36,008 nucleotides of DNA from a virus: UHGV virus genome UHGV-0138922; one strand, given 5' to 3'. The notes beneath the pieces are model-generated. The model was given only the letters and a program-made list of their open reading frames with translations, had not been told where the DNA came from and did no database searches. The position numbers and the translations under genes are program-made. Positions 1,006-31,515 of the stretch are shown piece by piece (the first letter of the stretch is position 1; the number at the start of each line of letters is the position of its first letter).

Positions 1006-1347
1006 ATGAAAAAGACTATCTACGCAATTATTGTTTCTGTGTGTGTTGGTGGCATCGGTGGATTTGTTTGTGGGTATGACTATTCCGATACTCAACATCA
1101 AGAGACTATCCGGTCAACTAAGGCTGAGATTAAGGATCTGAATCAGGAGATTAGCCAGTTAGAAAATGCTCTCTCACTCAAAGATAGTGAATATAGCGAG
1201 GTTTATGCAGAGAAACAAAAATATTGGAAAGAGAAAGATAATCTCGTCGTTTACGGGATGAAATTGTGTAAGAGCATGAAGGATGAGCGCAGTTGCTTAA
1301 TGGAACTTGCCCTTAAAGGTAACGTGACCATCGACTTCAAAGACTAA
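1006..1347 (+). CDS. Membrane-anchored coiled-coil protein (113 aa), accessory (moron-type) gene
   Basis: N-terminal hydrophobic segment then heptad-like region; AGAGGA ribosome-binding site; 5' region nearly identical to that of the next gene. Confidence 0.6.
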   Translation: MKKTIYAIIVSVCVGGIGGFVCGYDYSDTQHQETIRSTKAEIKDLNQEISQLENALSLKDSEYSEVYAEKQKYWKEKDNLVVYGMKLCKSMKDERSCLMELALKGNVTIDFKD

Positions 1348-1378: not shown

Positions 1379-1624
1379 ATGAAAAAGATTATCGCTGGTA
1401 TCGTTCTTTCTTTAGGTCTGGTTGGTGCTGCCACTGCCGATCAATATGTACAGGGTGATAGTGTTAAACGTGCAGCCGTTGTTACTTCCCTGAATCAATT
1501 GTGTAGTGAAATAGCTGTACTGGCTGGTCAACCTAATGATGAAGAACTTATTACCGCGTGTATCTGGAGTCATGTAGAGGATATTAATATTCGTGATGCT
1601 CGACTGAAAGGTAAAAAATACTAA
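1379..1624 (+). CDS. Small secreted protein (81 aa) with signal peptide
   Basis: MKKIIAGIVLSLGLVGAATA-DQ looks like a signal peptide with AxA cleavage motif; AGAGGAAA ribosome-binding site; terminator follows. Confidence 0.6.
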   Translation: MKKIIAGIVLSLGLVGAATADQYVQGDSVKRAAVVTSLNQLCSEIAVLAGQPNDEELITACIWSHVEDINIRDARLKGKKY

Positions 1625-1657: not shown

Positions 1658-1677
1658 ACGCGGTAGGGGCTTTTTTG
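1641..1677 (+). terminator. Rho-independent terminator
   Basis: GCCCCTA...TAGGGGC stem followed by TTTTTTGTTT. Confidence 0.6.
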
Positions 1678-1689
1678 TTTGGAAATGGT

Positions 1690-3369
1690 ATGAAAACTAA
1701 ACTGTATTCGTATATTCGCTTCTCGTCTATGCGTCAGAATGATGGTTCGAGTTATGAACGACAAATCAGGATGGCTAGAGAGATTGCGGCAAAGTATGAC
1801 CTTGAACTGGTAAATGATTATCAGGATCTGGGTGTATCTGCGTTTAAGGGTGCTAACTCTAAAACAGGGGCGCTATCTCGTTTCCTTGATGCAATTGGTA
1901 GATCCGTTCCTGTTGGTAGCTGGCTATTCATCGAAAACTTGGACCGTTTATCCCGTGCCGATATTGTCAGTGCGCAGGAGTTATTCCTTTCAATCATCCG
2001 TAGGGGAATAACCATTGTTACTGGCATGGATAACAAGATCTACTCGCTGGATACTGTTACCGCTAATCCGATGGACCTGATGTTCTCCATCCTTTTATTC
2101 ATCCGTGGTAATGAGGAAAGCCAGACTAAGCGCAATCGTACTAACTCAAGCGCACTGATTAAGATTAAAGCCCATCAAGAAAATCCCCAGAATCCGGCAG
2201 TGGCAATCGAGGAAGTTGGAAAGAATATGTGGTGGACGGATACCACTTCCGGTTATGTGCTGCCTCATCCGGTGTACTTCCCTGTTGTTCAGGAGATTGT
2301 GGAATTACGGAAGAATGGACGTTCAACCGCCGAAATACTGGATCACCTTAACGAGACTTATACACCGCCACCAGCGGTTAGCAACAAGAAGCATTCAAAA
2401 TGGTCACGGGCAATGGTTGAAAGGTTGTTTCATACCCGCGCTTTGATTGGTATCAAGGAGGTCTCTGTAGATGGCGTTAACTATGAGTTAAAGGATTATT
2501 ACCCTCGTGTTATTGATGACCCTACGTTCTATCACCTTAAGAAAAATATTGGTGCTAGAGCATGGAACTTCGGAGACAAGGAAGAAGTTAAACCGATCCC
2601 CCTGCTTAGTGGTATTGGCCTATTGAAATGTGATCATTGCGGTTGCGCTATGGTTAAAGTGAAGGGAACGAACAAACGTTCTGACCAGTATCGTTATACA
2701 TGTGATGCGACCCGTTCACGTAGACTTGATTGCGAGCATCCAAACTGGAGTTTTCGAGGTGATCAATTAGAGAAAGCTGTATTGCAATTGCTGGCTGATA
2801 AAATCTGGATTGCTGAGGACAAGGCTAATCCGGTTCCGGCGTTGAAAGTACAGGTTGATGAAATATCACGCAAGATTGATAACCTGATTGCCCTTTCTGC
2901 TATGACAGGAGCAACGAAGGAGCTAGCCGATCAGATTACTACCCTCAATAGCGAGCGTGAAACACTCTACAATCAGATCAAGATGGCAGAAGAGGAAATG
3001 TATTCTGTTGACTCTCAAGGCTGGGAGAAGCTCGCAGAATTTGATTTAGAAGATGTTTACAACGAGGAACGACTAAAGGTCCGGTTTAAGATTAAGCAAG
3101 CTCTAAAGCGGATCGGGTGTAGCAGGATTGACAGAAACAAAAACTTGTTTGTACTGGAATACATCGATGGAAAGACCCAGAGAGTTGTAATAGAAAATTC
3201 AAGAGGAACGAGGAAAGGACAAATCTTTGTCGATTTGAAAACTATCAATGATAGGCAGATTCTGGAGAGTAACGGGCTTGTTCTGCATCCATGTTTAGAC
3301 ATGCTGACAGATAAGAACTGGAAACCAGAAGAGGAAATACCAGGTCCATTACAGGAATTTGGAATTTAA
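1690..3369 (+). CDS. Large serine recombinase (phage integrase)
   Basis: N-terminal resolvase-type catalytic motif YSYIRFSSMRQ; long recombinase domain; Cys-rich zinc-ribbon (CDHCGC...YRYTCD...C) and C-terminal coiled coil; ATG 1690 is the likely start (track start 1675 is TTG). Confidence 0.88.
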   Translation: MKTKLYSYIRFSSMRQNDGSSYERQIRMAREIAAKYDLELVNDYQDLGVSAFKGANSKTGALSRFLDAIGRSVPVGSWLFIENLDRLSRADIVSAQELFLSIIRRGITIVTGMDNKIYSLDTVTANPMDLMFSILLFIRGNEESQTKRNRTNSSALIKIKAHQENPQNPAVAIEEVGKNMWWTDTTSGYVLPHPVYFPVVQEIVELRKNGRSTAEILDHLNETYTPPPAVSNKKHSKWSRAMVERLFHTRALIGIKEVSVDGVNYELKDYYPRVIDDPTFYHLKKNIGARAWNFGDKEEVKPIPLLSGIGLLKCDHCGCAMVKVKGTNKRSDQYRYTCDATRSRRLDCEHPNWSFRGDQLEKAVLQLLADKIWIAEDKANPVPALKVQVDEISRKIDNLIALSAMTGATKELADQITTLNSERETLYNQIKMAEEEMYSVDSQGWEKLAEFDLEDVYNEERLKVRFKIKQALKRIGCSRIDRNKNLFVLEYIDGKTQRVVIENSRGTRKGQIFVDLKTINDRQILESNGLVLHPCLDMLTDKNWKPEEEIPGPLQEFGI

Positions 3370-3405
3370 GCGGCCTAAATCGACGTATAACGAGCTAAAA
3401 CAGTT

Positions 3406-3432
3406 AAGGGGTACTTCGTACCCCTTTTTAAT
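3406..3432. terminator. Bidirectional hairpin terminator between convergent genes
   Basis: AAGGGGTAC-ttcg-GTACCCCTT palindrome flanked by A-run and T-run. Confidence 0.6.
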
Positions 3433-3441
3433 TTAATTGCG

Positions 3442-4617
3442 TTAGAGAGCCTCTAAGAGAGTATTAAAGTATTCATCCATTAAATCAGGACTGTCGTCAT
3501 CAATACAGAAAAATTCCGGTTTATTGATGCCGTAGAAGTGAGTATGTAGCTTGAATGTATCGTCATCAAATACATCTTTCGGGGATACCCACATATTAGC
3601 CTCGTCCGGTTGATTGGTTAGGTAGTCATAAACCAGTTGCTGTAAGTGTGGTAACTCATCAATAGTCAGAGTTTCCGACCATCCATCCTTGAAATCTTTG
3701 TAGGGTGCTGCATGAGTCTTGAAGCGTTGTTTTACTTCATGCTCTAAATCAACGGCTTTCCAACCATCCTCAAACTCATGAGTAAAGATTAATCTGTGAG
3801 TGAAGTTGCTCTTTCTGGTTTGCTCTCTCATTCGTTCTTCTGGTTTCCGGGTAGTGATTCCAAATTTAATAAATTTGTCATCTAATAATTGAATGTAGAA
3901 ACTAGCCTTACCCTGATAAGTCCGGTTAGACAGTTGCACCAGTTGGTCTTTAATGCAAAGCGGACAAGTGAAAGAATCAGCACATCTTAAATGAGATTCC
4001 CATTCGTGGTTATGTGTCTTGCAATAGGTTTTAAATTTAACATCCTTTAGGTGTGGGGTGTTTATGATGAATCCTTTGAAGGTGTAAGGCGTACTCTCGC
4101 AACGTGCATTGATGATTGTCTCTTTGTCCTTAATAACTTCATCAAAAGTCTTGCCACTTCTTACCCGTTGGGATTTTTCAGCCATACAGATTTTGCAATC
4201 AAAATCGAAATCATCTTTGAGTGCATGTAATAGAGATGGCGTCATGATTTGATTGTGTTCAGGGCACAAAACACGGGCTTTCGTTCTATTTCGCCCTTTC
4301 CATTCTCCTTGCCATCCGAGGAATTTCTTTCCCTTCTCATTACAACGAGATTCCATTTTCAACCATACAGCCTTTTCAGTCTGGAATAACTCACCCCCGT
4401 TAGTATCTTCCAGTTTGCGTAATTTGTAGTCCTTATATTCTTGTGTATCTAAATTGTAGATTCGAAAGTAAGTGTGATTACCCTTCCACGGTAGGATAAA
4501 TCCACCAAATACGAAAGCAGGTTCCAGTTTAGCGATGATTCGTTGTTGGTACTCTTCCGGCGATAAACCGCGAGTTTTCTTAACAAAAGGAATTTCGGCA
4601 GCGTAAGCAAGTTTCAT
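3442..4617 (-). CDS. Zn-ribbon + GIY-YIG (T5orf172-like) nuclease-domain protein, 391 aa
   Basis: GIY-YIG-like motifs SFYIQ...KFGITTR...E; several CxxC pairs; start moved to the internal ATG at 4617, which has an AGAGGAAA ribosome-binding site (track start 4728 lacks one). Confidence 0.6.
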   Translation of the reverse strand: MKLAYAAEIPFVKKTRGLSPEEYQQRIIAKLEPAFVFGGFILPWKGNHTYFRIYNLDTQEYKDYKLRKLEDTNGGELFQTEKAVWLKMESRCNEKGKKFLGWQGEWKGRNRTKARVLCPEHNQIMTPSLLHALKDDFDFDCKICMAEKSQRVRSGKTFDEVIKDKETIINARCESTPYTFKGFIINTPHLKDVKFKTYCKTHNHEWESHLRCADSFTCPLCIKDQLVQLSNRTYQGKASFYIQLLDDKFIKFGITTRKPEERMREQTRKSNFTHRLIFTHEFEDGWKAVDLEHEVKQRFKTHAAPYKDFKDGWSETLTIDELPHLQQLVYDYLTNQPDEANMWVSPKDVFDDDTFKLHTHFYGINKPEFFCIDDDSPDLMDEYFNTLLEAL

Positions 4618-4676
4618 AGTAGTTTCCTCTAAAATAATAAGCTCACTACTATTTATTAGAGAAAATTGTCTTACTA

Positions 4677-4704
4677 TTGCATTCTCTATCTGAATGTGTA
4701 TAAT
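4677..4704 (+). promoter_or_regulatory. Sigma70-like promoter (TTGCAT-N16-TATAAT)
   Basis: Hexamers read directly from sequence, about 65 nt upstream of gene 4772. Confidence 0.45.
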
Positions 4705-4771
4705 ACGCGACCCTAAATCCCAAACCAACCATATTGAGGTTATGCCTATAAGTTAAAAAAGTGAGGTCTAT

Positions 4772-5341
4772 ATGATTCCAGTAATGGCTAAAGATATTGT
4801 TTTTACTCCTAAATCCTCCCGTGCTGTAACTCCATCGGCATTAGAACAACGCATTCTGACTCACATCAAAGAGAAGGACTTACCGTTAGTCTTTCATGGC
4901 TTTCTGGGTGAGTTTAAAGGGCTTCATTCAAGAATTGCTCTTACATGTACCCGATGCGGCAATAGAGCCGACAAATCAGCTACCAACCTGCTTAATGAAG
5001 GTAAACGCTGTGCATGTCTCAAAAGTGATTACTTTCAATATAAAGCGGGTGTGCCTTATCTCTATGTAATGAAATCAGGGGATATTGGTAAATTTGGTGT
5101 TACAAAGTCAATCATCAAGCGACGCATTAATCTGGGTGTACGCAATCCCGGTCATAACTTTGATATTGTCTTTGCTGGTGAAATGCCATCAATGAAACAT
5201 GCTTTAGCCACTGAAAGAGCAATAAAGAGATTACTGGATGTGGGTATAGGCGGGATTGAATACGGCAAAACTGAAACATTCCACTACTGCAATAAATCAC
5301 TAAACAATATAAAGAATATTGCAAGTGTGGAGTGGAACTAA
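4772..5341 (+). CDS. Zn-ribbon + GIY-YIG nuclease-like protein (189 aa), paralog of 3442-4617
   Basis: CxxC...CxC then PYLYVMKSGDIGKFGVTKS...R...E (GIY-YIG spacing); collinear similarity to the 391-aa protein. Confidence 0.65.
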   Translation: MIPVMAKDIVFTPKSSRAVTPSALEQRILTHIKEKDLPLVFHGFLGEFKGLHSRIALTCTRCGNRADKSATNLLNEGKRCACLKSDYFQYKAGVPYLYVMKSGDIGKFGVTKSIIKRRINLGVRNPGHNFDIVFAGEMPSMKHALATERAIKRLLDVGIGGIEYGKTETFHYCNKSLNNIKNIASVEWN

Positions 5342-6831
5342 TGCAAGATATTAAAATTCATTTTCAAGATTACAGTTTCGTTAAGGTTGATTGCTCTCCT
5401 TCTATCGGAATGGAATTAAGAGATTATTTCTCGTTTGAGGTTGAAGGGGCTAGATTTAGCCCCCGTTACAAGTATTCCGGCTGGGATGGAAAGATAAGAC
5501 TGTTTACGCATGAAAATACCTTGCCAATCGGATTATTGAAAACATTAGGTATCTTCGCTAAAAACATGGGCTATAGCGTATGGGTAGACCCCAGATTGCT
5601 TGAGAAGGAAGATGTAACCAAAGAATCAATTGATTCATGGATTGACTCTTTAGAAGTGTATTCCGGTAGCAATAAAATCAATCCTTACTGGTATCAAAGG
5701 GAGGCAGTATTTCAGGGTATCCATAATCGCCGTAGAATGCTGGTTCTTCCTACCAGTGCCGGAAAGTCATTGATTGCTTGTATGCTGTCTCGTTGGTACT
5801 TAGAGAACTACACCGGAAAGATTCTAATCATTGTCCCGACTACATCGCTGGTGGTTCAAATGAGGGATGATTTTGTCGATTATAGGCTATTCCCTTATGA
5901 AGCAATCCATACAATGATGAGTGGTAGCGGGAAACATCCGGGAGACAGGTTAATCACTGTTTCAACCTGGCAATCAGCTTGCAAGATGCCTCCTGAATGG
6001 TTCCGACAATATGGAATGTTGATAGTTGATGAATCACATCGCGCTAGTGCAAAGAATATCACCAATATCATCAACGGAATGAATCACTGTCAATTCAAGA
6101 TTGGTATGACTGGTTCCCCGAAAGAATCAAAGTGCCATCTCATGCAGTATGTCGGGTTGTTCGGTGATATTCAGAAGATAGTAGCAATCAAGCAATTGAT
6201 GGATGACGGACAAGTTACCCAGCTTAAAATTAATGCTCTCTTCCTTAAGTACAAAGATGAAGAATGTAAAGCAATGCGGGGCAAAGATTATCAGGAAGAG
6301 ATTAAATTCATCAATGCTCATAAGGTAAGGAATAAACTGGCTTGTAATTTGGCCTTAAAACTCGCCAGGAAGCAAGAAAACGTATTTTTGATGTTCCGGT
6401 ACTCTAAGCATGGAAAAATGCTTTATAATGCATTACAGCGCGTTTACGATAAGGTTTATTACGTTTCCAGTGAGATTACCACCGCCGAACGCGATGCCTT
6501 AAAGAAAATGGCTGAAAATGAGAAAGGATTGATTGTAGTTGCTAGCTATGGTGTTTTCTCTACTGGCGTTTCAATTAAGAATCTTCATCATGTTATTTTT
6601 GGTCATCCGGTGAAAGAATCGACCATTGTCCGGCAATCAATAGGACGTGCTCTTAGGAAACATGGTAGTAAGGCAATTGCTGTTGTATGGGATTTGATAG
6701 ATGTGATTTGTTCGAAAGACAAGAAAGGAAAATATACACGCAAGAATTATGCTTTAACTCATGGCCTCCAGAGAATCAATACTTACATATCAGATCGCTT
6801 CGAATATGCCACGAAAACAATCGAGATTTAA
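5341..6831 (+). CDS. uvsW: T4 UvsW-like SF2 (DExH) DNA helicase
   Basis: Walker A LPTSAGKS, motif II LIVDESH, motif III MTGSP, motif VI IGRALRKHG; N-terminal region MQDIKIHFQDYSFVKVDC...WDGKIRLF resembles the UvsW N-terminus as I recall it; ATG overlaps the upstream stop (TAATG); track alternative start is GTG 5332. Confidence 0.82.
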   Translation: MQDIKIHFQDYSFVKVDCSPSIGMELRDYFSFEVEGARFSPRYKYSGWDGKIRLFTHENTLPIGLLKTLGIFAKNMGYSVWVDPRLLEKEDVTKESIDSWIDSLEVYSGSNKINPYWYQREAVFQGIHNRRRMLVLPTSAGKSLIACMLSRWYLENYTGKILIIVPTTSLVVQMRDDFVDYRLFPYEAIHTMMSGSGKHPGDRLITVSTWQSACKMPPEWFRQYGMLIVDESHRASAKNITNIINGMNHCQFKIGMTGSPKESKCHLMQYVGLFGDIQKIVAIKQLMDDGQVTQLKINALFLKYKDEECKAMRGKDYQEEIKFINAHKVRNKLACNLALKLARKQENVFLMFRYSKHGKMLYNALQRVYDKVYYVSSEITTAERDALKKMAENEKGLIVVASYGVFSTGVSIKNLHHVIFGHPVKESTIVRQSIGRALRKHGSKAIAVVWDLIDVICSKDKKGKYTRKNYALTHGLQRINTYISDRFEYATKTIEI

Positions 6832-6836
6832 TAAAT

Positions 6837-6854
6837 AGGGGCTTTAATGCCCCT
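6837..6854 (+). terminator. Hairpin (AGGGGC-tttaat-GCCCCT), weak terminator or attenuator
   Basis: Stem-loop immediately after the helicase stop, followed by a T-rich tract. Confidence 0.35.
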
Positions 6855-6876
6855 TTATTCTACGGAGATTAAAAAA

Positions 6877-7128
6877 ATGATTAGCTTTAAACGTTTTTTG
6901 GTTGAGGCCGCGATCGACGGTTTCATGAGTAAGATTTATTCTTGTAATACTATCGAGGGATTAAATGAACTTGAGGCATATTATGAGAAGCGCAAGAAAG
7001 AAACAGAATTGAAACCTGCTGATGATATTTCGATCCGTGATGCCATCGCCGGACGACGCAAGCAACTGGAAGCGGAGAACGAGCCGGAAGACGATTTTTC
7101 TATCATCAATTTGTGCCAGATAAAATAA
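6877..7128 (+). CDS. Small acidic protein (83 aa)
   Basis: GGAG about 10 nt upstream of ATG 6877 (track start 6847 lacks a ribosome-binding site); followed by a strong terminator. Confidence 0.5.
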   Translation: MISFKRFLVEAAIDGFMSKIYSCNTIEGLNELEAYYEKRKKETELKPADDISIRDAIAGRRKQLEAENEPEDDFSIINLCQIK

Positions 7129-23609: not shown

Positions 23610-25613
23610 TCATTCAGCGCCAATCTGAAGAACTTTCAGAGCTTCCGGCTGAGTAACAACATAATCCAGATCTACCCAGATACGCGGAACGATAGCAGAC
23701 TGTGCACGGTAGGTAGTGTCGTCCATATCCAATTCCAGACCGCCCCACTCACCGATAGTGATGCCGGAGAAGTCACCCAGAACGATGTGATCTGCCGGAA
23801 TAACACCAGAAGTAACTACTTCGTAACCAGCCAGTTTGCCGTTTTCGATGATATAACCGGAAACGCCGTTATCTTTCAGGGTAGATTCCAGTTCGGCAGC
23901 AGTTGCACCGCTCATCGCAAACTTGATCGCCTGAGCAGGAACGCCAGCGTCGGTCAGTTTAGCAATTTCTTTCAGGAAATCTTTGTAAGAGAAAGCAGCT
24001 TTCTTCTCAACGCGGCTAGCGTCTACCAGTTGCTTAACCAGACCAGCCGGACCACGAGCATTTTCTTTGTCAGACAGAATCAGTTGTTCCAGTTTGATAC
24101 GAACAGCTTTGTTAATGTGGTCAGTGATCAGGGTAGCGATACCCGGAACGGTTTTCAGAGACTGACGGCTAATCGGGTTGCCACCAGCGAAAGTCTTAGG
24201 AGACAGTTTCACGTTCGCAAATTCAGCTTTGCTTTCCGGCGCAGCACCGTTTTCATCAACGAAGCCGAAAGCATCAACGCTGGATTTAGTCATTTTTGGA
24301 ATAGCAGTCGGAGAAGTCAAGCCACTATAAACAGTCACACCCAGACGACCCAGAACAGATTCCGGCATCAGCATTTCGATGTAGGATTCAGTCATCAGTT
24401 TTTCGTCGGTGATAGCAGTCAGATCGGCTTTGGTGTTACCAGCAGCAGCAGCACGCATAGCAGCAGCCGGAACGAATACAGAGCCACCACGAGCAGCACG
24501 ACCACGCTGCATAGTTGCAGTAGCAGCCATTGCAGAAAACTCGGCTTCGTTAGCACCCAGAGCTTCACCATCTACCAGAGAGCGAATTACGTTGTTCAGG
24601 TCAAAAGTTTTTTCCATTTTAGAGTCCTTAATTTGTTCGTTATTACGTTGAGCATTGGTAATGTTATTTAGTGCCTTAGTGCGGAATGCTTCCGGCGTCA
24701 TATCTTTAACTGCCAATGCGCGTTTTAATTCTTCGTCGTCAATATTTAGTTCGCGTGCAATTTCGCGAATTTCTAATTCGTCTTCTTCGGAACGTTCAGC
24801 CACTTCAATTTTTTCTTCTTCAACCGGAGCAGCTTCACGTTCTTCTGTCATTTCTTCTTCTTCCCGAACAGTTCCACGATCATCATCAGAACTTTCAGAA
24901 TGTTCAGCGTCTTTTCCGTCTTCGAGATTTTCATTTTCTTCATTCTCTTCAACTTGGCGCTCTTGAGTTTCTTCTACTTCCGGTTCTTTATTTTCTTCTA
25001 CCGGAGTTTCTTCAACCTGAGCGACTTCTTTTTCTTCGTCTTTAACTTGTTCGATTTGTTCTTTAGTCATATCGCGTTTAGCCTCCAAATTAACTGTGAT
25101 AGTATTTAGAGAGCGATTTAGACCGACAGAATCGTCTGCGGGCACAGACACCCATGAAATCTCATGAGGAATCCACTTAGTAACAATCAATTGTCCTTTA
25201 GCGTAATCGATGTGATATTCTTTAATGTCATAACCGACAGAAATTTTTTCCATCGTACCTTCAATGACTTTATTACGAATATCATTAGCCAAAGTACCAT
25301 GCTTAGAGAATTTAACAGTAGCACGGCCTACTTTATCCGCATCGATTCGAGCGTTACAGACAACACCAATGTGATTATCGAAATTATGATTGAACAGCAA
25401 CGGAGCGTTATTATTCAGGCGAGACAGATCAACCGCTTCCGGTGTATGTAACAGAATTTCATCTAATACCACCATCTCTTGATTTTGCTCATCCCAGAAT
25501 TGGCGCTGGTAAGGCTGTTCACTGGAGAAAGCAATTTCAAATTCGTATTGATCGTTATGCCCTTCGTTAATAACTCCACCGTAACCGTTAAGATCGCGGC
25601 GAAATTTAAGCAT
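23610..25613 (-). CDS. Prohead protease - acidic scaffold-like linker - HK97-fold major capsid protein (single 667-aa ORF)
   Basis: N-terminus resembles HK97-type prohead protease (LLFNHNFDNHIG, ISVGYD, HEISWVSVPAD); ~150-aa Glu-rich linker; C-terminal ~330 aa HK97-like capsid domain; AAGGTGA ribosome-binding site. Confidence 0.8.
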   Translation of the reverse strand: MLKFRRDLNGYGGVINEGHNDQYEFEIAFSSEQPYQRQFWDEQNQEMVVLDEILLHTPEAVDLSRLNNNAPLLFNHNFDNHIGVVCNARIDADKVGRATVKFSKHGTLANDIRNKVIEGTMEKISVGYDIKEYHIDYAKGQLIVTKWIPHEISWVSVPADDSVGLNRSLNTITVNLEAKRDMTKEQIEQVKDEEKEVAQVEETPVEENKEPEVEETQERQVEENEENENLEDGKDAEHSESSDDDRGTVREEEEMTEEREAAPVEEEKIEVAERSEEDELEIREIARELNIDDEELKRALAVKDMTPEAFRTKALNNITNAQRNNEQIKDSKMEKTFDLNNVIRSLVDGEALGANEAEFSAMAATATMQRGRAARGGSVFVPAAAMRAAAAGNTKADLTAITDEKLMTESYIEMLMPESVLGRLGVTVYSGLTSPTAIPKMTKSSVDAFGFVDENGAAPESKAEFANVKLSPKTFAGGNPISRQSLKTVPGIATLITDHINKAVRIKLEQLILSDKENARGPAGLVKQLVDASRVEKKAAFSYKDFLKEIAKLTDAGVPAQAIKFAMSGATAAELESTLKDNGVSGYIIENGKLAGYEVVTSGVIPADHIVLGDFSGITIGEWGGLELDMDDTTYRAQSAIVPRIWVDLDYVVTQPEALKVLQIGAE

Positions 25614-30687: not shown

Positions 30688-31515
30688 TTACAGTCCGAAG
30701 TGTTCCAGTGATCCAGCATTCTGACGAATCAGCAAAGCAGTATTATTGACGATTGCTCGTGAGTTGTTAGGTTGTGGCAATTTCAAAGTTGCTGCCTTTT
30801 CTTCTTCAAGCAATCCGAGTTTTACGAGATGCGGGATAGCATCAGCAGTGAACTCGATCTGACCGTGTGCTGACATACGAGCGAACATATAGCCAGGAGG
30901 AAGCAGATCATAGCCGTTAGGCTTACCAGAAGCATCCAGACGACGCTCAAGAACACCAGCAGCACATAATCCTTTCAGAATCATTTGTACCTTCACAGAG
31001 CCTCGTTTTTCGCCCAGAAGACGGGTTAAGCTGTGTGTGTCGATTGCTTTACGTACATGCAATTCAACCAGTTGATTCTTTTCCTGAATCAGTTGTTCGT
31101 TTGCAGCTTCCAGTTCCATTGCCTCGCGAATCCAATCGAGCTTAGTCATGTTTGCGTATGGGTTGACTTGCTGAGAACGCAGTTTTTCATTTTCTTCTTT
31201 CAGTCGTTTCCATTCCTGAATAACAACCATTCGACGCTTAACATCGTAACCAGTGACAAGAGTCAGTGTCAGTTCTTCATCTAAATGATATTCGGTTTGT
31301 TCTCGTCCACACTGATCAAGATAGGTGCGCTCAAAACTGAGCACATCTAATTCCAGAGCATCGAGCATGGATTTAATATCACGTTTAACGTTTTTGTGTT
31401 CTTTTCCGGTAAATTCAGCGATCTGACGAGAAGACATGGTCAGCGGTTTGGTGTTATCAACAACCAGAGACACGGAAGCAGTTTTAGTAGTATTCATAAC
31501 GGTAACAGTATTCAT
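30688..31515 (-). CDS. Rha-family regulatory protein / antirepressor-like
   Basis: N-terminal LTMSSRQIAEFTGKEHKNVKRDIKSM resembles the Phage_pRha motif; coiled-coil middle; AAGGGGAA ribosome-binding site. Confidence 0.7.
   Translation of the reverse strand: MNTVTVMNTTKTASVSLVVDNTKPLTMSSRQIAEFTGKEHKNVKRDIKSMLDALELDVLSFERTYLDQCGREQTEYHLDEELTLTLVTGYDVKRRMVVIQEWKRLKEENEKLRSQQVNPYANMTKLDWIREAMELEAANEQLIQEKNQLVELHVRKAIDTHSLTRLLGEKRGSVKVQMILKGLCAAGVLERRLDASGKPNGYDLLPPGYMFARMSAHGQIEFTADAIPHLVKLGLLEEEKAATLKLPQPNNSRAIVNNTALLIRQNAGSLEHFGL

What the first reader, a model, noticed from the sequence alone, without database searches (positions are those of the whole stretch)
3442..5341. Divergent pair of paralogous Zn-ribbon + GIY-YIG nuclease-like genes
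Both proteins show CxxC pairs followed by a GIY-YIG-type core (YxY...KFG[IV]T...R...E) with matching order. Such genes are typical homing endonucleases of virulent T-even/T5-like phages and are unexpected next to a serine integrase in a prophage. They could also act in inter-phage competition or DNA targeting.
Basis: partly seen in the sequence, partly recalled or inferred. Interest (0 to 1): 0.45.

Follow-up and report, generated by a model that had tools for sequence, protein, structure and literature searches.

The report
Prophage homing-type nuclease pair beside uvsW
Two back-to-back genes in an E. coli prophage encode zinc-finger DNA-binding repeats fused to a GIY-YIG-type nuclease, a known kind of selfish "homing" nuclease, and they sit directly upstream of a helicase gene (uvsW) shared with virulent T4-like phages.

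Summary

They are distant family members, not recent duplicates. This architecture was described in 2023 as the T5orf172 class of putative homing endonucleases in ICP1, T5-like and T4-like phages.

The downstream genes are uvsW plus uvsW.1, 71-75% identical to those of RB49-like T-even phages (Krischvirus). ORF-B sits where T4 segE sits, immediately upstream of uvsW.

- The slot is hypervariable across about 57 related E. coli prophages, with replaced alleles and microhomology deletions.
- A sharp recombination boundary lies about 176 nt into uvsW.
- Both genes are under purifying selection (dN/dS 0.08-0.24).
- Sister prophages carry a 567-nt uvsW patch 97-98% identical to RB49.

Best reading: free-standing homing-type nucleases forming a uvsW island in a temperate phage. 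Nuclease activity, targets and homing are untested. I rate it a new member of a known kind, of moderate interest.

The parts
1675..3369 (+). Large serine recombinase (prophage integrase). Context only; it forms the left flank of the variable slot.
   Evidence: Pfam Resolvase, Recombinase and Zn_ribbon_recom domains. PHROG 95 integrase, 2e-63. 57 of 5426 complete E. coli genomes carry it; the loci inspected are inserted in ycdX, hicB or codB.
3406..3426 (.). Bidirectional intrinsic terminator between the convergent recombinase gene and ORF-A.
   Evidence: 9-bp stem with 5 GC pairs and T runs on both strands. Conserved in all related prophages, including those with other A-slot alleles.
3442..4617 (-). 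ORF-A, 391 aa. Three CapR-type repeats (aa 33-228 = nt 3934-4521; the first lacks Cys, the other two are CxxH...CxxC). T5orf172/MUG113 nuclease domain (aa 233-335 = nt 3613-3921). Acidic C-terminal tail ending LLEAL (nt 3445-3612).
4618..4771 (.). Divergent intergenic region. By eye it holds back-to-back promoters: for ORF-B, TTGCAT-16 nt-TGtTATAAT at about 4677-4704; for ORF-A, an overlapping TATTAT on the minus strand.
   Evidence: Sequence read. The strict consensus scan did not flag these sites, so this is inference. The deletion allele L002 loses everything from 4699 onward.
4772..5341 (+). ORF-B, 189 aa. One CapR zinc finger (CxxC...CxC, aa 34-84 = nt 4871-5023) and a T5orf172-like nuclease domain (aa 92-185 = nt 5045-5326). 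Its TAA stop overlaps the uvsW ATG (TAATG).
5234..5516 (+). Conserved 'anchor': the last 108 nt of ORF-B plus the first ~176 nt of uvsW. It is shared (95-100%) by the four related uvsW-bearing alleles aligned (A3) or compared by segment, including the ORF-B deletion allele. Divergent B alleles (42-47% identity) end in the same 23 residues. A sharp recombination boundary lies at its right end.
5341..6831 (+). uvsW-type helicase, 496 aa. It is the cargo, and possibly the target gene, of the nuclease locus.
   Evidence: Pfam UvsW_N 3e-35, plus ResIII and Helicase_C. 71-75% amino-acid identity to UvsW of Krischvirus (RB49-like) phages; only 58 phage records exceed 60%. Nucleotide homology to these phages starts exactly at the ATG.
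6847..7128 (+). uvsW.1 homologue, 93 aa. Marks the end of the T-even-like block.
   Evidence: Pfam UvsW-1 PF11637, 1e-21. blastn homology to Krischvirus runs to window position 7094.

Best explanation
ORF-A and ORF-B are free-standing, homing-type site-specific DNA endonucleases of the CapR-zinc-finger plus T5orf172 (GIY-YIG superfamily) class. They reside in the accessory slot next to the integrase of a roughly 37-kb temperate phage integrated in E. coli ycdX.

Proposed mechanism:
- The CapR repeats (three in A, one in B) read a long DNA site.
- The C-terminal GIY-YIG-like domain cuts nearby, using Tyr, Arg and a metal-binding Glu.
- When a related genome lacking that allele is in the same cell, the break is repaired from the nuclease-bearing copy. 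Such a genome could be a co-resident or superinfecting phage of the same family, or an RB49-like T-even phage sharing the uvsW block. Repair drags the nuclease gene and adjacent sequence along.
- ORF-B occupies the position that segE holds in T4: immediately upstream of uvsW, same strand, translationally coupled. Its most likely target is therefore the 5' part of uvsW in foreign alleles. The linked first ~176 nt of uvsW would then be the co-converted, cleavage-resistant tract.
- ORF-A has its own promoter and terminator, and its target is unknown.
- Together with uvsW and uvsW.1 they form a 'HEG-island'-like unit.

What is shown: domain architecture, fold, conserved catalytic residues, purifying selection, allele turnover, recombination boundaries, and the T-even relationship of the cargo.

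What is inferred: nuclease activity, target sites, and that the nucleases caused the recombination.
For: - Architecture: CapR and MUG113/T5orf172 hits and PHROG 681 endonuclease.
- Family size: 1673 cluster representatives match the B profile, most with 2-10 CapR repeats plus a C-terminal nuclease. Of 61 relatives scanned, 60 hit CapR, 36 MUG113 and 32 T5orf172.
- Catalytic set invariant.
- GIY-YIG fold in both models.
- Literature: this architecture defines the T5orf172 HEG class, whose genes occupy boundaries of genetic exchange (PMC10448857). T4 segE lies between inh and uvsW, targets uvsW and homes with co-conversion of flanks (PMC2988022 and PMC2330249).
- Turnover at the slot: 12 genomes carry A+B. 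One has A replaced (29% identity) with B kept. Some have other CapR/T5orf172 alleles. Four are deletion alleles.
- Independent reassortment of A and B in Salmonella: A 64% and B 51% in one locus, A 39% and B 69% in another, against 70-77% for the flanks.
- Boundaries: A, B and uvsW 1-176 are 97-100% identical in L016, where the recombinase is 87% and the uvsW body 76% identical.
- The same uvsW locus is a nuclease-gene hotspot in Krischvirus. G5211 has a GIY-YIG gene upstream with about 1000 nt of foreign uvsW. JK32 has the best cultured-phage homologue of ORF-A just after uvsW, with divergence confined to the last ~330 nt.
- dN/dS is 0.08-0.24, and the nuclease domain is more constrained than the DNA-binding repeats.
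Against: - No biochemical data exist for these proteins.
- ORF-B is below the Pfam T5orf172 threshold (13.6 against 20 bits), and ORF-A is just below it (19.1).
- Neither protein hits the canonical GIY-YIG model.
- No intact nuclease-free cognate site exists in the prophage family. All 'empty' alleles are microhomology deletions that keep gene remnants, so no target site can be pointed to.
- The uvsW +176 boundary is shared by four prophages and may reflect a single recombination event rather than repeated homing.
- The left boundary, in the recombinase gene, is diffuse.
- Conserved synteny of the pair in Salmonella prophages, together with purifying selection, fits a gene useful to the phage or host as well as it fits a selfish element.
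- In the window both nuclease genes lie upstream of uvsW and none lies downstream, so the cargo is not bracketed.
Confidence: 0.55

Rival explanations
1. Prophage-encoded exclusion or defence nucleases. ORF-A, and perhaps ORF-B, would be expressed in the lysogen and cut incoming competitor phages at specific sites, such as RB49-like T-even phages or rival phages of the same family. This would protect the host and prophage. Gene conversion would be a by-product, and diversification of the CapR repeats would reflect an arms race over target sites.
For: - Position in the hypervariable accessory slot beside the integrase at the prophage end.
- ORF-A has its own divergent promoter region and a terminator.
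- Purifying selection, with faster change in the DNA-binding repeats than in the nuclease domain.
- Allele replacement at a fixed locus across E. coli and Salmonella.
- Sister prophages carry 97-98% RB49-identical patches in uvsW, showing physical encounters with such phages.
- ICP1 Odn is a precedent for a T5orf172 nuclease used against a competing element (PMC10448857).
- A GIY-YIG anti-T4 restriction enzyme (PD-T4-3) is among the structural matches.
Against: - No PADLOC model matches either protein.
- The architecture is the same as that of the putative homing genes of lytic phages.
- ORF-B is co-oriented and translationally coupled with uvsW, like a T4 seg gene.
- There are no expression data for the lysogenic state.
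- Most prophages of the family lack the window-type A, B and uvsW block: about 40 of 57 match only the recombinase at megablast level, though at least one of them carries other CapR/T5orf172 alleles in the slot.
- This rival overlaps with homing, since T4 seg genes also cause marker exclusion.
Confidence: 0.25
2. Domesticated DNA-binding proteins with no nuclease role. Like the satellite protein CapR, they would act as transcriptional regulators of the prophage, for example of uvsW or of lysis-lysogeny genes, or of another phage.
For: - The CapR homology domain is a proven sequence-specific repressor domain (PMC8096241).
- The two genes flank a shared divergent promoter region.
- The pair is syntenically conserved in Salmonella relatives.
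Against: - CapR itself is only the 15.5-kDa DNA-binding part, without the T5orf172 domain.
- Here the nuclease domain is present. Its catalytic residues are invariant in both families, and it is the most constrained part of ORF-A (pN 0.14 against 0.29).
- Prophages that lack both genes keep the rest of the genome.
Confidence: 0.1
3. Decaying remnants of old homing genes with no present function, retained by hitch-hiking or because ORF-B's 3' end carries expression signals for uvsW.
For: - Deletion alleles exist.
- The 3' 108 nt of ORF-B are kept even when the rest is deleted or replaced. This parallels promoters embedded in T4 seg genes (PMC2988022).
Against: - Both ORFs are intact in all 12 full-length genomes and in clusters of hundreds of database members.
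- dN/dS is 0.08-0.24, not near 1.
- Catalytic residues are invariant.
Confidence: 0.05

Closest known systems
CapR-domain T5orf172 putative homing endonucleases of ICP1, T5-like and T4-like phages (Barth, Dunham and Seed 2023, PMC10448857; Netter et al. 2021, PMC8096241)
   Same: - N-terminal repeated CapR-type zinc fingers and a C-terminal T5orf172/MUG113 nuclease domain.
- Variable repeat number.
- Domain and allele shuffling.
- Location at boundaries of genetic exchange, next to a conserved replication/repair gene.
   Different: - Only 25-30% identity to any cultured-phage protein.
- The host genome is a temperate prophage with a serine integrase, a setting the 2023 paper does not mention (no occurrence of 'temperate' or 'prophage').
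- The two genes are divergent neighbours, both on one side of the cargo.
T4 SegE, the free-standing GIY-YIG homing endonuclease between inh/hoc.1 and uvsW
   Same: Same genomic position relative to uvsW as ORF-B: immediately upstream and on the same strand. SegE is listed with uvsW as its target gene, and it homes with co-conversion of flanking sequence.
   Different: - SegE is a canonical GIY-YIG protein with a different DNA-binding region.
- ORF-B has no detectable sequence similarity to the GIY-YIG gene that occupies this position upstream of uvsW in Krischvirus G5211.
- The resemblance is positional, not one of homology.
HEG-islands (PMC10448857)
   Same: Nuclease genes are linked to a cargo gene block (uvsW, uvsW.1) that is conserved at the nucleotide level between otherwise unrelated phages. 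The window allele is 71-75% identical, and sister prophages have patches of up to 98%. Cognate positions are occupied by unrelated nuclease genes in different genomes.
   Different: - The cargo is not bracketed on both sides in the window.
- Overall cargo identity is below the >90% described for the published islands.
- The partners differ in lifestyle: a temperate phage with a lambda-type (Phage_Tail_Tip) tail module and a virulent Straboviridae myovirus.
ICP1 Odn, a T5orf172 nuclease used against the PLE satellite
   Same: Same nuclease domain family. It is a precedent for use in inter-element conflict, and its catalytic Glu is required for activity (PMC10448857).
   Different: Odn uses a RepA_N DNA-binding domain rather than CapR fingers. 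Nothing shows that ORF-A or ORF-B targets a competitor.

Membership tests
GIY-YIG nuclease superfamily | Small alpha/beta fold with a three-stranded antiparallel sheet, as in I-TevI, UvrC and SLX1 | tested here: met
GIY-YIG nuclease superfamily | Conserved first-strand Tyr, catalytic Arg and metal-binding Glu | tested here: met
   A: Y241, R262 and E315. B: Y98, R117 and E168. Invariant in alignments A4 (12 sequences) and A6 (61 sequences at 18-43% identity). Assignment of each residue to its catalytic role is by motif order, not by superposition.
GIY-YIG nuclease superfamily | Canonical Y-I-G second motif and a match to Pfam PF01541 | tested here: not met
   The second motif is K-F-G in both proteins. 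PF01541 hits neither window protein at E<=1. Only the replaced A allele in L003 gives a weak 0.071. This is the T5orf172-branch variant.
T5orf172 (PF10544) / MUG113 (PF13455) | Profile match above the curated cut-off | tested here: inconclusive
   ORF-A: MUG113 27.3 bits against a cut-off of 22.3 (met); T5orf172 19.1 against 20 (just under). ORF-B: T5orf172 13.6 against 20 (not met); no MUG113 hit. Indirect support for B: 32 of 61 profile relatives hit T5orf172 and 36 of 61 hit MUG113, and PHROG 681 gives 6e-19.
CapR homology domain (PF21817) | Profile match above cut-off and a zinc-ligand pattern (CxxC...CxC) | tested here: met
   A: 39.8 bits with two stretches. B: 25.2 bits against a cut-off of 24.2. 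B has C59xxC62...C80xC82. A has two CxxH...CxxC units and one Cys-less repeat. Zinc binding itself was not tested.
Free-standing homing endonuclease genes | Site-specific endonuclease activity on a cognate nuclease-free allele | not testable with these tools
   Needs purified protein or in vivo cleavage mapping. No intact nuclease-free cognate site was found in the prophage family.
Free-standing homing endonuclease genes | Presence/absence or allele polymorphism among closely related genomes | tested here: met
   12 genomes carry both genes. One has A replaced, four have deletion alleles, and about 40 have other content in the slot. Caveat: the 'absent' alleles are deletions that keep remnants.
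Free-standing homing endonuclease genes | Co-conversion tract or recombination boundary adjacent to the gene | tested here: inconclusive
   There is a sharp boundary at uvsW +176, and the B 3' end is conserved. The boundary is shared by four prophages and could stem from one event. The left boundary is diffuse.
HEG-island (PMC10448857) | Two or more nuclease genes bracketing cargo that is conserved at the nucleotide level between otherwise unrelated phages | tested here: inconclusive
   The cargo, uvsW plus uvsW.1, is shared with Krischvirus at 71-75% nt identity, with patches of 97-98% in sister prophages. Both nuclease genes lie on the same side of the cargo in the window.
Known anti-phage defence systems (PADLOC-DB 2.0) | Match to any defence-system protein model | tested here: not met
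   No hit for ORF-A or ORF-B at E<=0.01. NCBIfam also gives none.

The most novel reading that the evidence does not exclude
A temperate E. coli/Salmonella prophage lineage keeps a nuclease-linked T-even recombination module (uvsW, uvsW.1, and in some members uvsY) and uses it as a recombination interface with virulent RB49-like phages. The prophage nucleases would cut the uvsW region of infecting T-even genomes, and possibly the reverse also occurs. The locus would then be both a weapon against a virulent phage and a conduit for gene flow between temperate and virulent phages with no other detectable nucleotide similarity. The 97-98% RB49-identical patches in sister prophages would be scars of such encounters.
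Probability: 0.3. Interest if true: 0.65.

Novelty: new member of a known kind. Interest (0 to 1): 0.42.

Why it matters
The proteins themselves are ordinary members of a recently described class whose biochemistry is still almost unexplored. No structure of a CapR-T5orf172 protein is solved, and only Odn has been shown to cut DNA. The context is the useful part. This is a naturally occurring, genetically tractable E. coli prophage in which such nucleases sit beside a uvsW gene shared with RB49-like phages, which the records list with E. coli hosts including K-12 strains. That gives a simple system for three questions. Do T5orf172 nucleases really home? What do CapR repeat arrays recognise? 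Do nuclease-induced breaks drive gene exchange between temperate and virulent phages? If the nucleases restrict Krischvirus phages, that would also bear on phage-therapy host-range predictions for the roughly 1% of E. coli genomes carrying this prophage family.

Tried and rejected
- Megablast of 3300-5400 against cultured phages found no match. The cassette is known only from prophages.
- PADLOC and NCBIfam gave no hits for A or B, so there is no support for a catalogued defence system or a named family.
- The G5211 upstream GIY-YIG gene is not homologous to ORF-B (E 1.7). The shared position is therefore analogy only.
- I treated the 'empty' alleles as possible virgin homing sites and rejected that. 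Junction sequences show deletions that keep the first 7 codons of A fused to its stop, and the 3' end of B after a 9-bp direct repeat.
- I considered repeated independent spread of the A-B cassette. The common uvsW +176 breakpoint in four genomes means one event may explain it.
- Two species-representative genome scans found no relatives.
- The consensus promoter scan did not detect the intergenic promoters seen by eye.
- hhalign of the A and B families reported only the N-terminal match. Homology of the nuclease domains rests on the shared PHROG and Pfam models and on motif order.
- The idea that A or B act with the serine recombinase, for example as a directionality factor, was dropped. Prophages with 93-99% identical recombinases lack them.
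- A first megablast with a 94% identity filter missed the RB49-like patch because alignments extended into divergent flanks. Segment-wise blastn resolved it.
Full report
**1. What is there**

The window starts in the 3' fragment of E. coli ycdX. It then runs through almost all of a roughly 36.7-kb prophage that splits that gene.

Gene order from the left end:
- small ORFs;
- a large serine recombinase, 1675..3369 (Resolvase, Recombinase and Zn_ribbon_recom domains);
- a bidirectional terminator, 3406-3426;
- ORF-A on the minus strand;
- a 154-nt intergenic region;
- ORF-B on the plus strand;
- a helicase gene whose ATG overlaps ORF-B's stop codon (TAATG);
- a 93-aa ORF;
- an M15 peptidase gene, followed by tail, head and terminase genes.

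ORF-A is listed as 3442..4728 from a TTG. RefSeq annotation of near-identical genomes and every homologue start at the ATG at 4617 (MKLAYAAE, 391 aa). ORF-B is 4772..5341 (189 aa), with a GAGG six bases upstream of the ATG.

**2. The domain claim holds**

Profile matches:

| Model | ORF-A | ORF-B |
|---|---|---|
| Pfam CapR PF21817 | E 5e-10, two stretches | E 1.8e-5, above cut-off |
| Pfam MUG113 PF13455 | E 5e-6, above cut-off | no hit |
| Pfam T5orf172 PF10544 | 19.1 bits (cut-off 20) | 13.6 bits |
| PHROG 681 'endonuclease' | 9e-44 | 6e-19 |

In PHROG 681, ORF-B aligns to the same C-terminal profile segment as the last repeat plus nuclease of ORF-A.

Repeat structure:
- ORF-A has three CapR-type repeats. 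One has no cysteines. Two are C-x2-H...C-x2-C.
- ORF-B has one repeat, C-x2-C...C-x-C. This is the pattern reported for CapR itself (PMC10448857).

The nuclease core reads (F/L)Y-x-(Q/V)...K-F-G-(I/V)-T...R...E...G-x-(S/T)-E-T in both. Y, K, G, R, E, G and E are invariant in 12 A-family proteins. They are also invariant in 61 diverse relatives of ORF-B at 18-43% identity.

An exhaustive profile search with the B family found 1673 cluster representatives at E<=1e-3. Most have 2-10 CapR repeats followed by the nuclease domain. Of 61 scanned, 60 hit CapR, 36 MUG113, 32 T5orf172, 34 DUF4379 and 17 DUF723.

The canonical GIY-YIG Pfam model does not hit either window protein. The second motif is K-F-G, not Y-I-G, which is the T5orf172-branch variant.

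A and B are related only distantly. 'Paralogous' should be read as 'same family'.

**3. Known class**

This architecture is the one described by Netter et al. 2021 and by Barth, Dunham and Seed 2023. It defines the T5orf172 putative homing endonucleases of ICP1, T5-like and T4-like phages.
- CapR itself is the 15.5-kDa DNA-binding part alone.
- In that study, 95 of 229 T5orf172 genes carried CapR domains, often repeated.
- Such genes were found at boundaries of genetic exchange.

The nearest cultured-phage relatives are all at 25-30% identity. For ORF-A they are in Krischvirus (RB49-like) phages, T5, and Aeromonas and Vibrio phages. For ORF-B they are in T5-like phages.

**4.

The helicase (5341..6831) has a UvsW_N domain (3e-35). 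It is 71-75% identical in protein to UvsW of Krischvirus phages, and only 58 phage records exceed 60%.

The 93-aa ORF (6847..7128) is UvsW.1 (PF11637, 1e-21).

Nucleotide homology to Krischvirus (71-75%) starts exactly at the uvsW ATG and ends at 7094. A sister prophage (L003) also has UvsY. The rest of the prophage has no close cultured relative: the best terminase match is 43%.

The uvsW locus is a nuclease-gene hotspot in T-even phages:
- T4 segE lies between inh/hoc.1 and uvsW. It is listed with uvsW as its target gene and homes with co-conversion of flanks.
- Krischvirus G5211 has a canonical GIY-YIG gene ending 4 nt before uvsW. It is unrelated in sequence to ORF-B. The first ~1000 nt of its uvsW are foreign relative to RB49, while the last ~480 nt are nearly identical.
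- JK32 and Whisky carry the best cultured-phage homologue of ORF-A (29%) at the uvsW locus; in JK32 it lies between uvsW and uvsW.1. JK32 diverges from RB49 only in the last ~330 nt of uvsW.

ORF-B therefore occupies the segE position.

**5. Population picture**

57 of 5426 complete E. coli genomes carry the recombinase. The loci inspected are inserted in ycdX, hicB or codB.

The stretch between the recombinase gene and the M15 peptidase gene is hypervariable:
- 12 genomes have A, B and uvsW, at >=95.5% identity over 3300-5400.
- One (L003) has A replaced by a 337-aa protein at 29% identity, while B is 93% and the helicase 95% identical.
- L004-type prophages have other CapR/T5orf172 alleles and no helicase.
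- L005-type prophages have only a 65-aa remnant.
- Four have deletion alleles.

The deletion junctions are informative. ORF-A is reduced to its first seven codons fused to its own stop codon. ORF-B is lost between the direct repeats CTGAATGTG and CTGGATGTG, leaving its last 108 nt. These are secondary losses, not empty homing sites.

Divergent B alleles (42-47% identity) end in the identical 23 residues, TETFHYCNKSLNNIKNIASVEWN. The B 3' end plus the first ~176 nt of uvsW therefore forms a conserved anchor across the uvsW-bearing alleles compared.

Salmonella prophages in the same chromosomal site keep the order recombinase, A, B, uvsW. A and B are more diverged than the flanks and reassort independently:

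| Salmonella locus | ORF-A identity | ORF-B identity | Flank identity |
|---|---|---|---|
| L008 | 64% | 51% | 70-77% |
| L009 | 39% | 69% | 70-77% |

Both genes are intact everywhere examined and under purifying selection, with dN/dS 0.08-0.24. The nuclease domain of A is more constrained than its DNA-binding repeats (pN 0.14 against 0.29).

**6. Recombination boundaries**

Against L016 (hicB site), the identities are as follows:

| Segment | Identity to window |
|---|---|
| Recombinase | 87% |
| ORF-A | 99% |
| ORF-B | 99-100% |
| uvsW 1-180 | 97% |
| uvsW 181-600 | 90% |
| Rest of uvsW | 76% |

The right-hand break at about +176 is sharp. It is the same in L001, L016, L015 and L002, so it may record one event. 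The left-hand side decays gradually through the recombinase gene. This fits nuclease genes sitting at exchange boundaries, but it does not prove repeated homing.

**7. Exchange with virulent phages**

In sister prophages L016 and L001, uvsW nt 801-1370 is 98.1% and 96.8% identical to RB49. That is 11 and 18 mismatches in 567 nt. The patch is flanked by 72% identity upstream and by no detectable similarity downstream. L015 shows 86% over the same patch.

The window's own allele has no such patch. This shows recent gene conversion between a T-even-type virulent phage and resident prophages at this locus. It does not show what caused it.

**8. Interpretation**

Most likely (0.55): A and B are active, free-standing homing-type endonucleases forming a uvsW-linked island in a temperate phage. 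ORF-B would be functionally analogous to SegE, and the 5' part of foreign uvsW alleles is its probable target.

A defence or exclusion role against T-even or sibling phages (0.25) is compatible with the data and overlaps mechanistically with homing. A purely regulatory, CapR-like role (0.1) and plain decay (0.05) are disfavoured by the invariant catalytic residues and the selection data.

Nuclease activity, target sites, expression timing and actual homing were not, and cannot be, tested with these tools.

**9. Verdict**

The proteins are new, divergent members of a known class.

The added value is the setting: a T-even uvsW block in a temperate prophage, with allele turnover and evidence of recent prophage-to-virulent-phage exchange nearby.

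Interest is moderate (0.42). Novelty: new member of a known kind.

Noticed in passing
L016:9468-10037 and L001:8842-9411 (uvsW nt 801-1370 of sister prophages). The equivalent window region, about 6141-6710, lacks the patch.: A 567-nt patch of prophage uvsW is 98.1% (L016) and 96.8% (L001) identical to virulent phage RB49. It is flanked by 72% identity upstream and by no similarity downstream. This indicates recent gene conversion between a T-even-type phage and resident E. coli prophages.
   Followed up: partly
window 3445-3480 (ORF-A C-terminus) and all A-slot alleles in L003, L004, L005 and P0008-P0010: A-slot proteins, even at 27-38% identity, end in a conserved acidic tail (E/D)L(D/E)LSPLEAL; the window protein ends ...TLLEAL. 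It has low pLDDT with a predicted terminal helix. It could be a partner-binding peptide, or merely part of the conserved recombination anchor next to the terminator.
   Followed up: no
L002:6144-6250 and L002:6236-6350 (ETEC1738); also hits H39-H41: These are deletion alleles. ORF-A is collapsed to MKLAYAA-stop. ORF-B is removed between the 9-bp repeats CTGAATGTG and CTGGATGTG, together with both putative -10 elements. In ETEC1738 an IS1 also interrupts uvsW.
   Followed up: yes
window 1-36008 as a whole; L007: The roughly 36.7-kb prophage shows no recognisable replication module, repressor or excisionase by name. Only uvsW and a Rha-family regulator (30688..31515) were recognised. The 43% terminase match (to phage DCP80) is its closest link to any cultured phage.
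   Followed up: partly
window 23610-25613 (-): A 667-aa capsid gene is a fusion of a prohead protease domain (Peptidase_S78, aa 40-162) and a major capsid domain (Phage_capsid, aa 409-663).
   Followed up: no
window 1675-3369 versus L002, L015, L016 (hicB site), L006 (codB site), and L001, L004 (ycdX site): Recombinase alleles track the integration site. ycdX-type alleles are 99% identical to the window. hicB-type alleles are 87-94% identical, with most divergence in the first ~450 nt. The codB-type allele is about 84% identical.
   Followed up: no
L005:15450-16045 (E. coli O55:H7 DEC5A prophage, tail module): A sister prophage carries a NUMOD3-domain gene, another homing-endonuclease-associated DNA-binding module, between tail genes. 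The window has DUF2163/DUF6950-type genes there, so other nuclease-type insertions occur in this phage family.
   Followed up: no
window 1006-1347 and 1379-1624 (+): Two small ORFs with N-terminal hydrophobic, signal-like segments lie between the attachment site and the integrase gene. This region is also variable among relatives. In some Salmonella relatives an OmpW-like gene sits there instead, so it looks like a second accessory-gene slot.
   Followed up: no
L003:9531-9698 (FDAARGOS_1267 prophage): A UvsY-annotated ORF follows uvsW in this sister prophage. It is short (55 aa; RB49 UvsY is 135 aa). Its position mirrors the T-even uvsW, uvsW.1, uvsY gene order, so the T-even-like block can be larger than in the window.
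   Followed up: no
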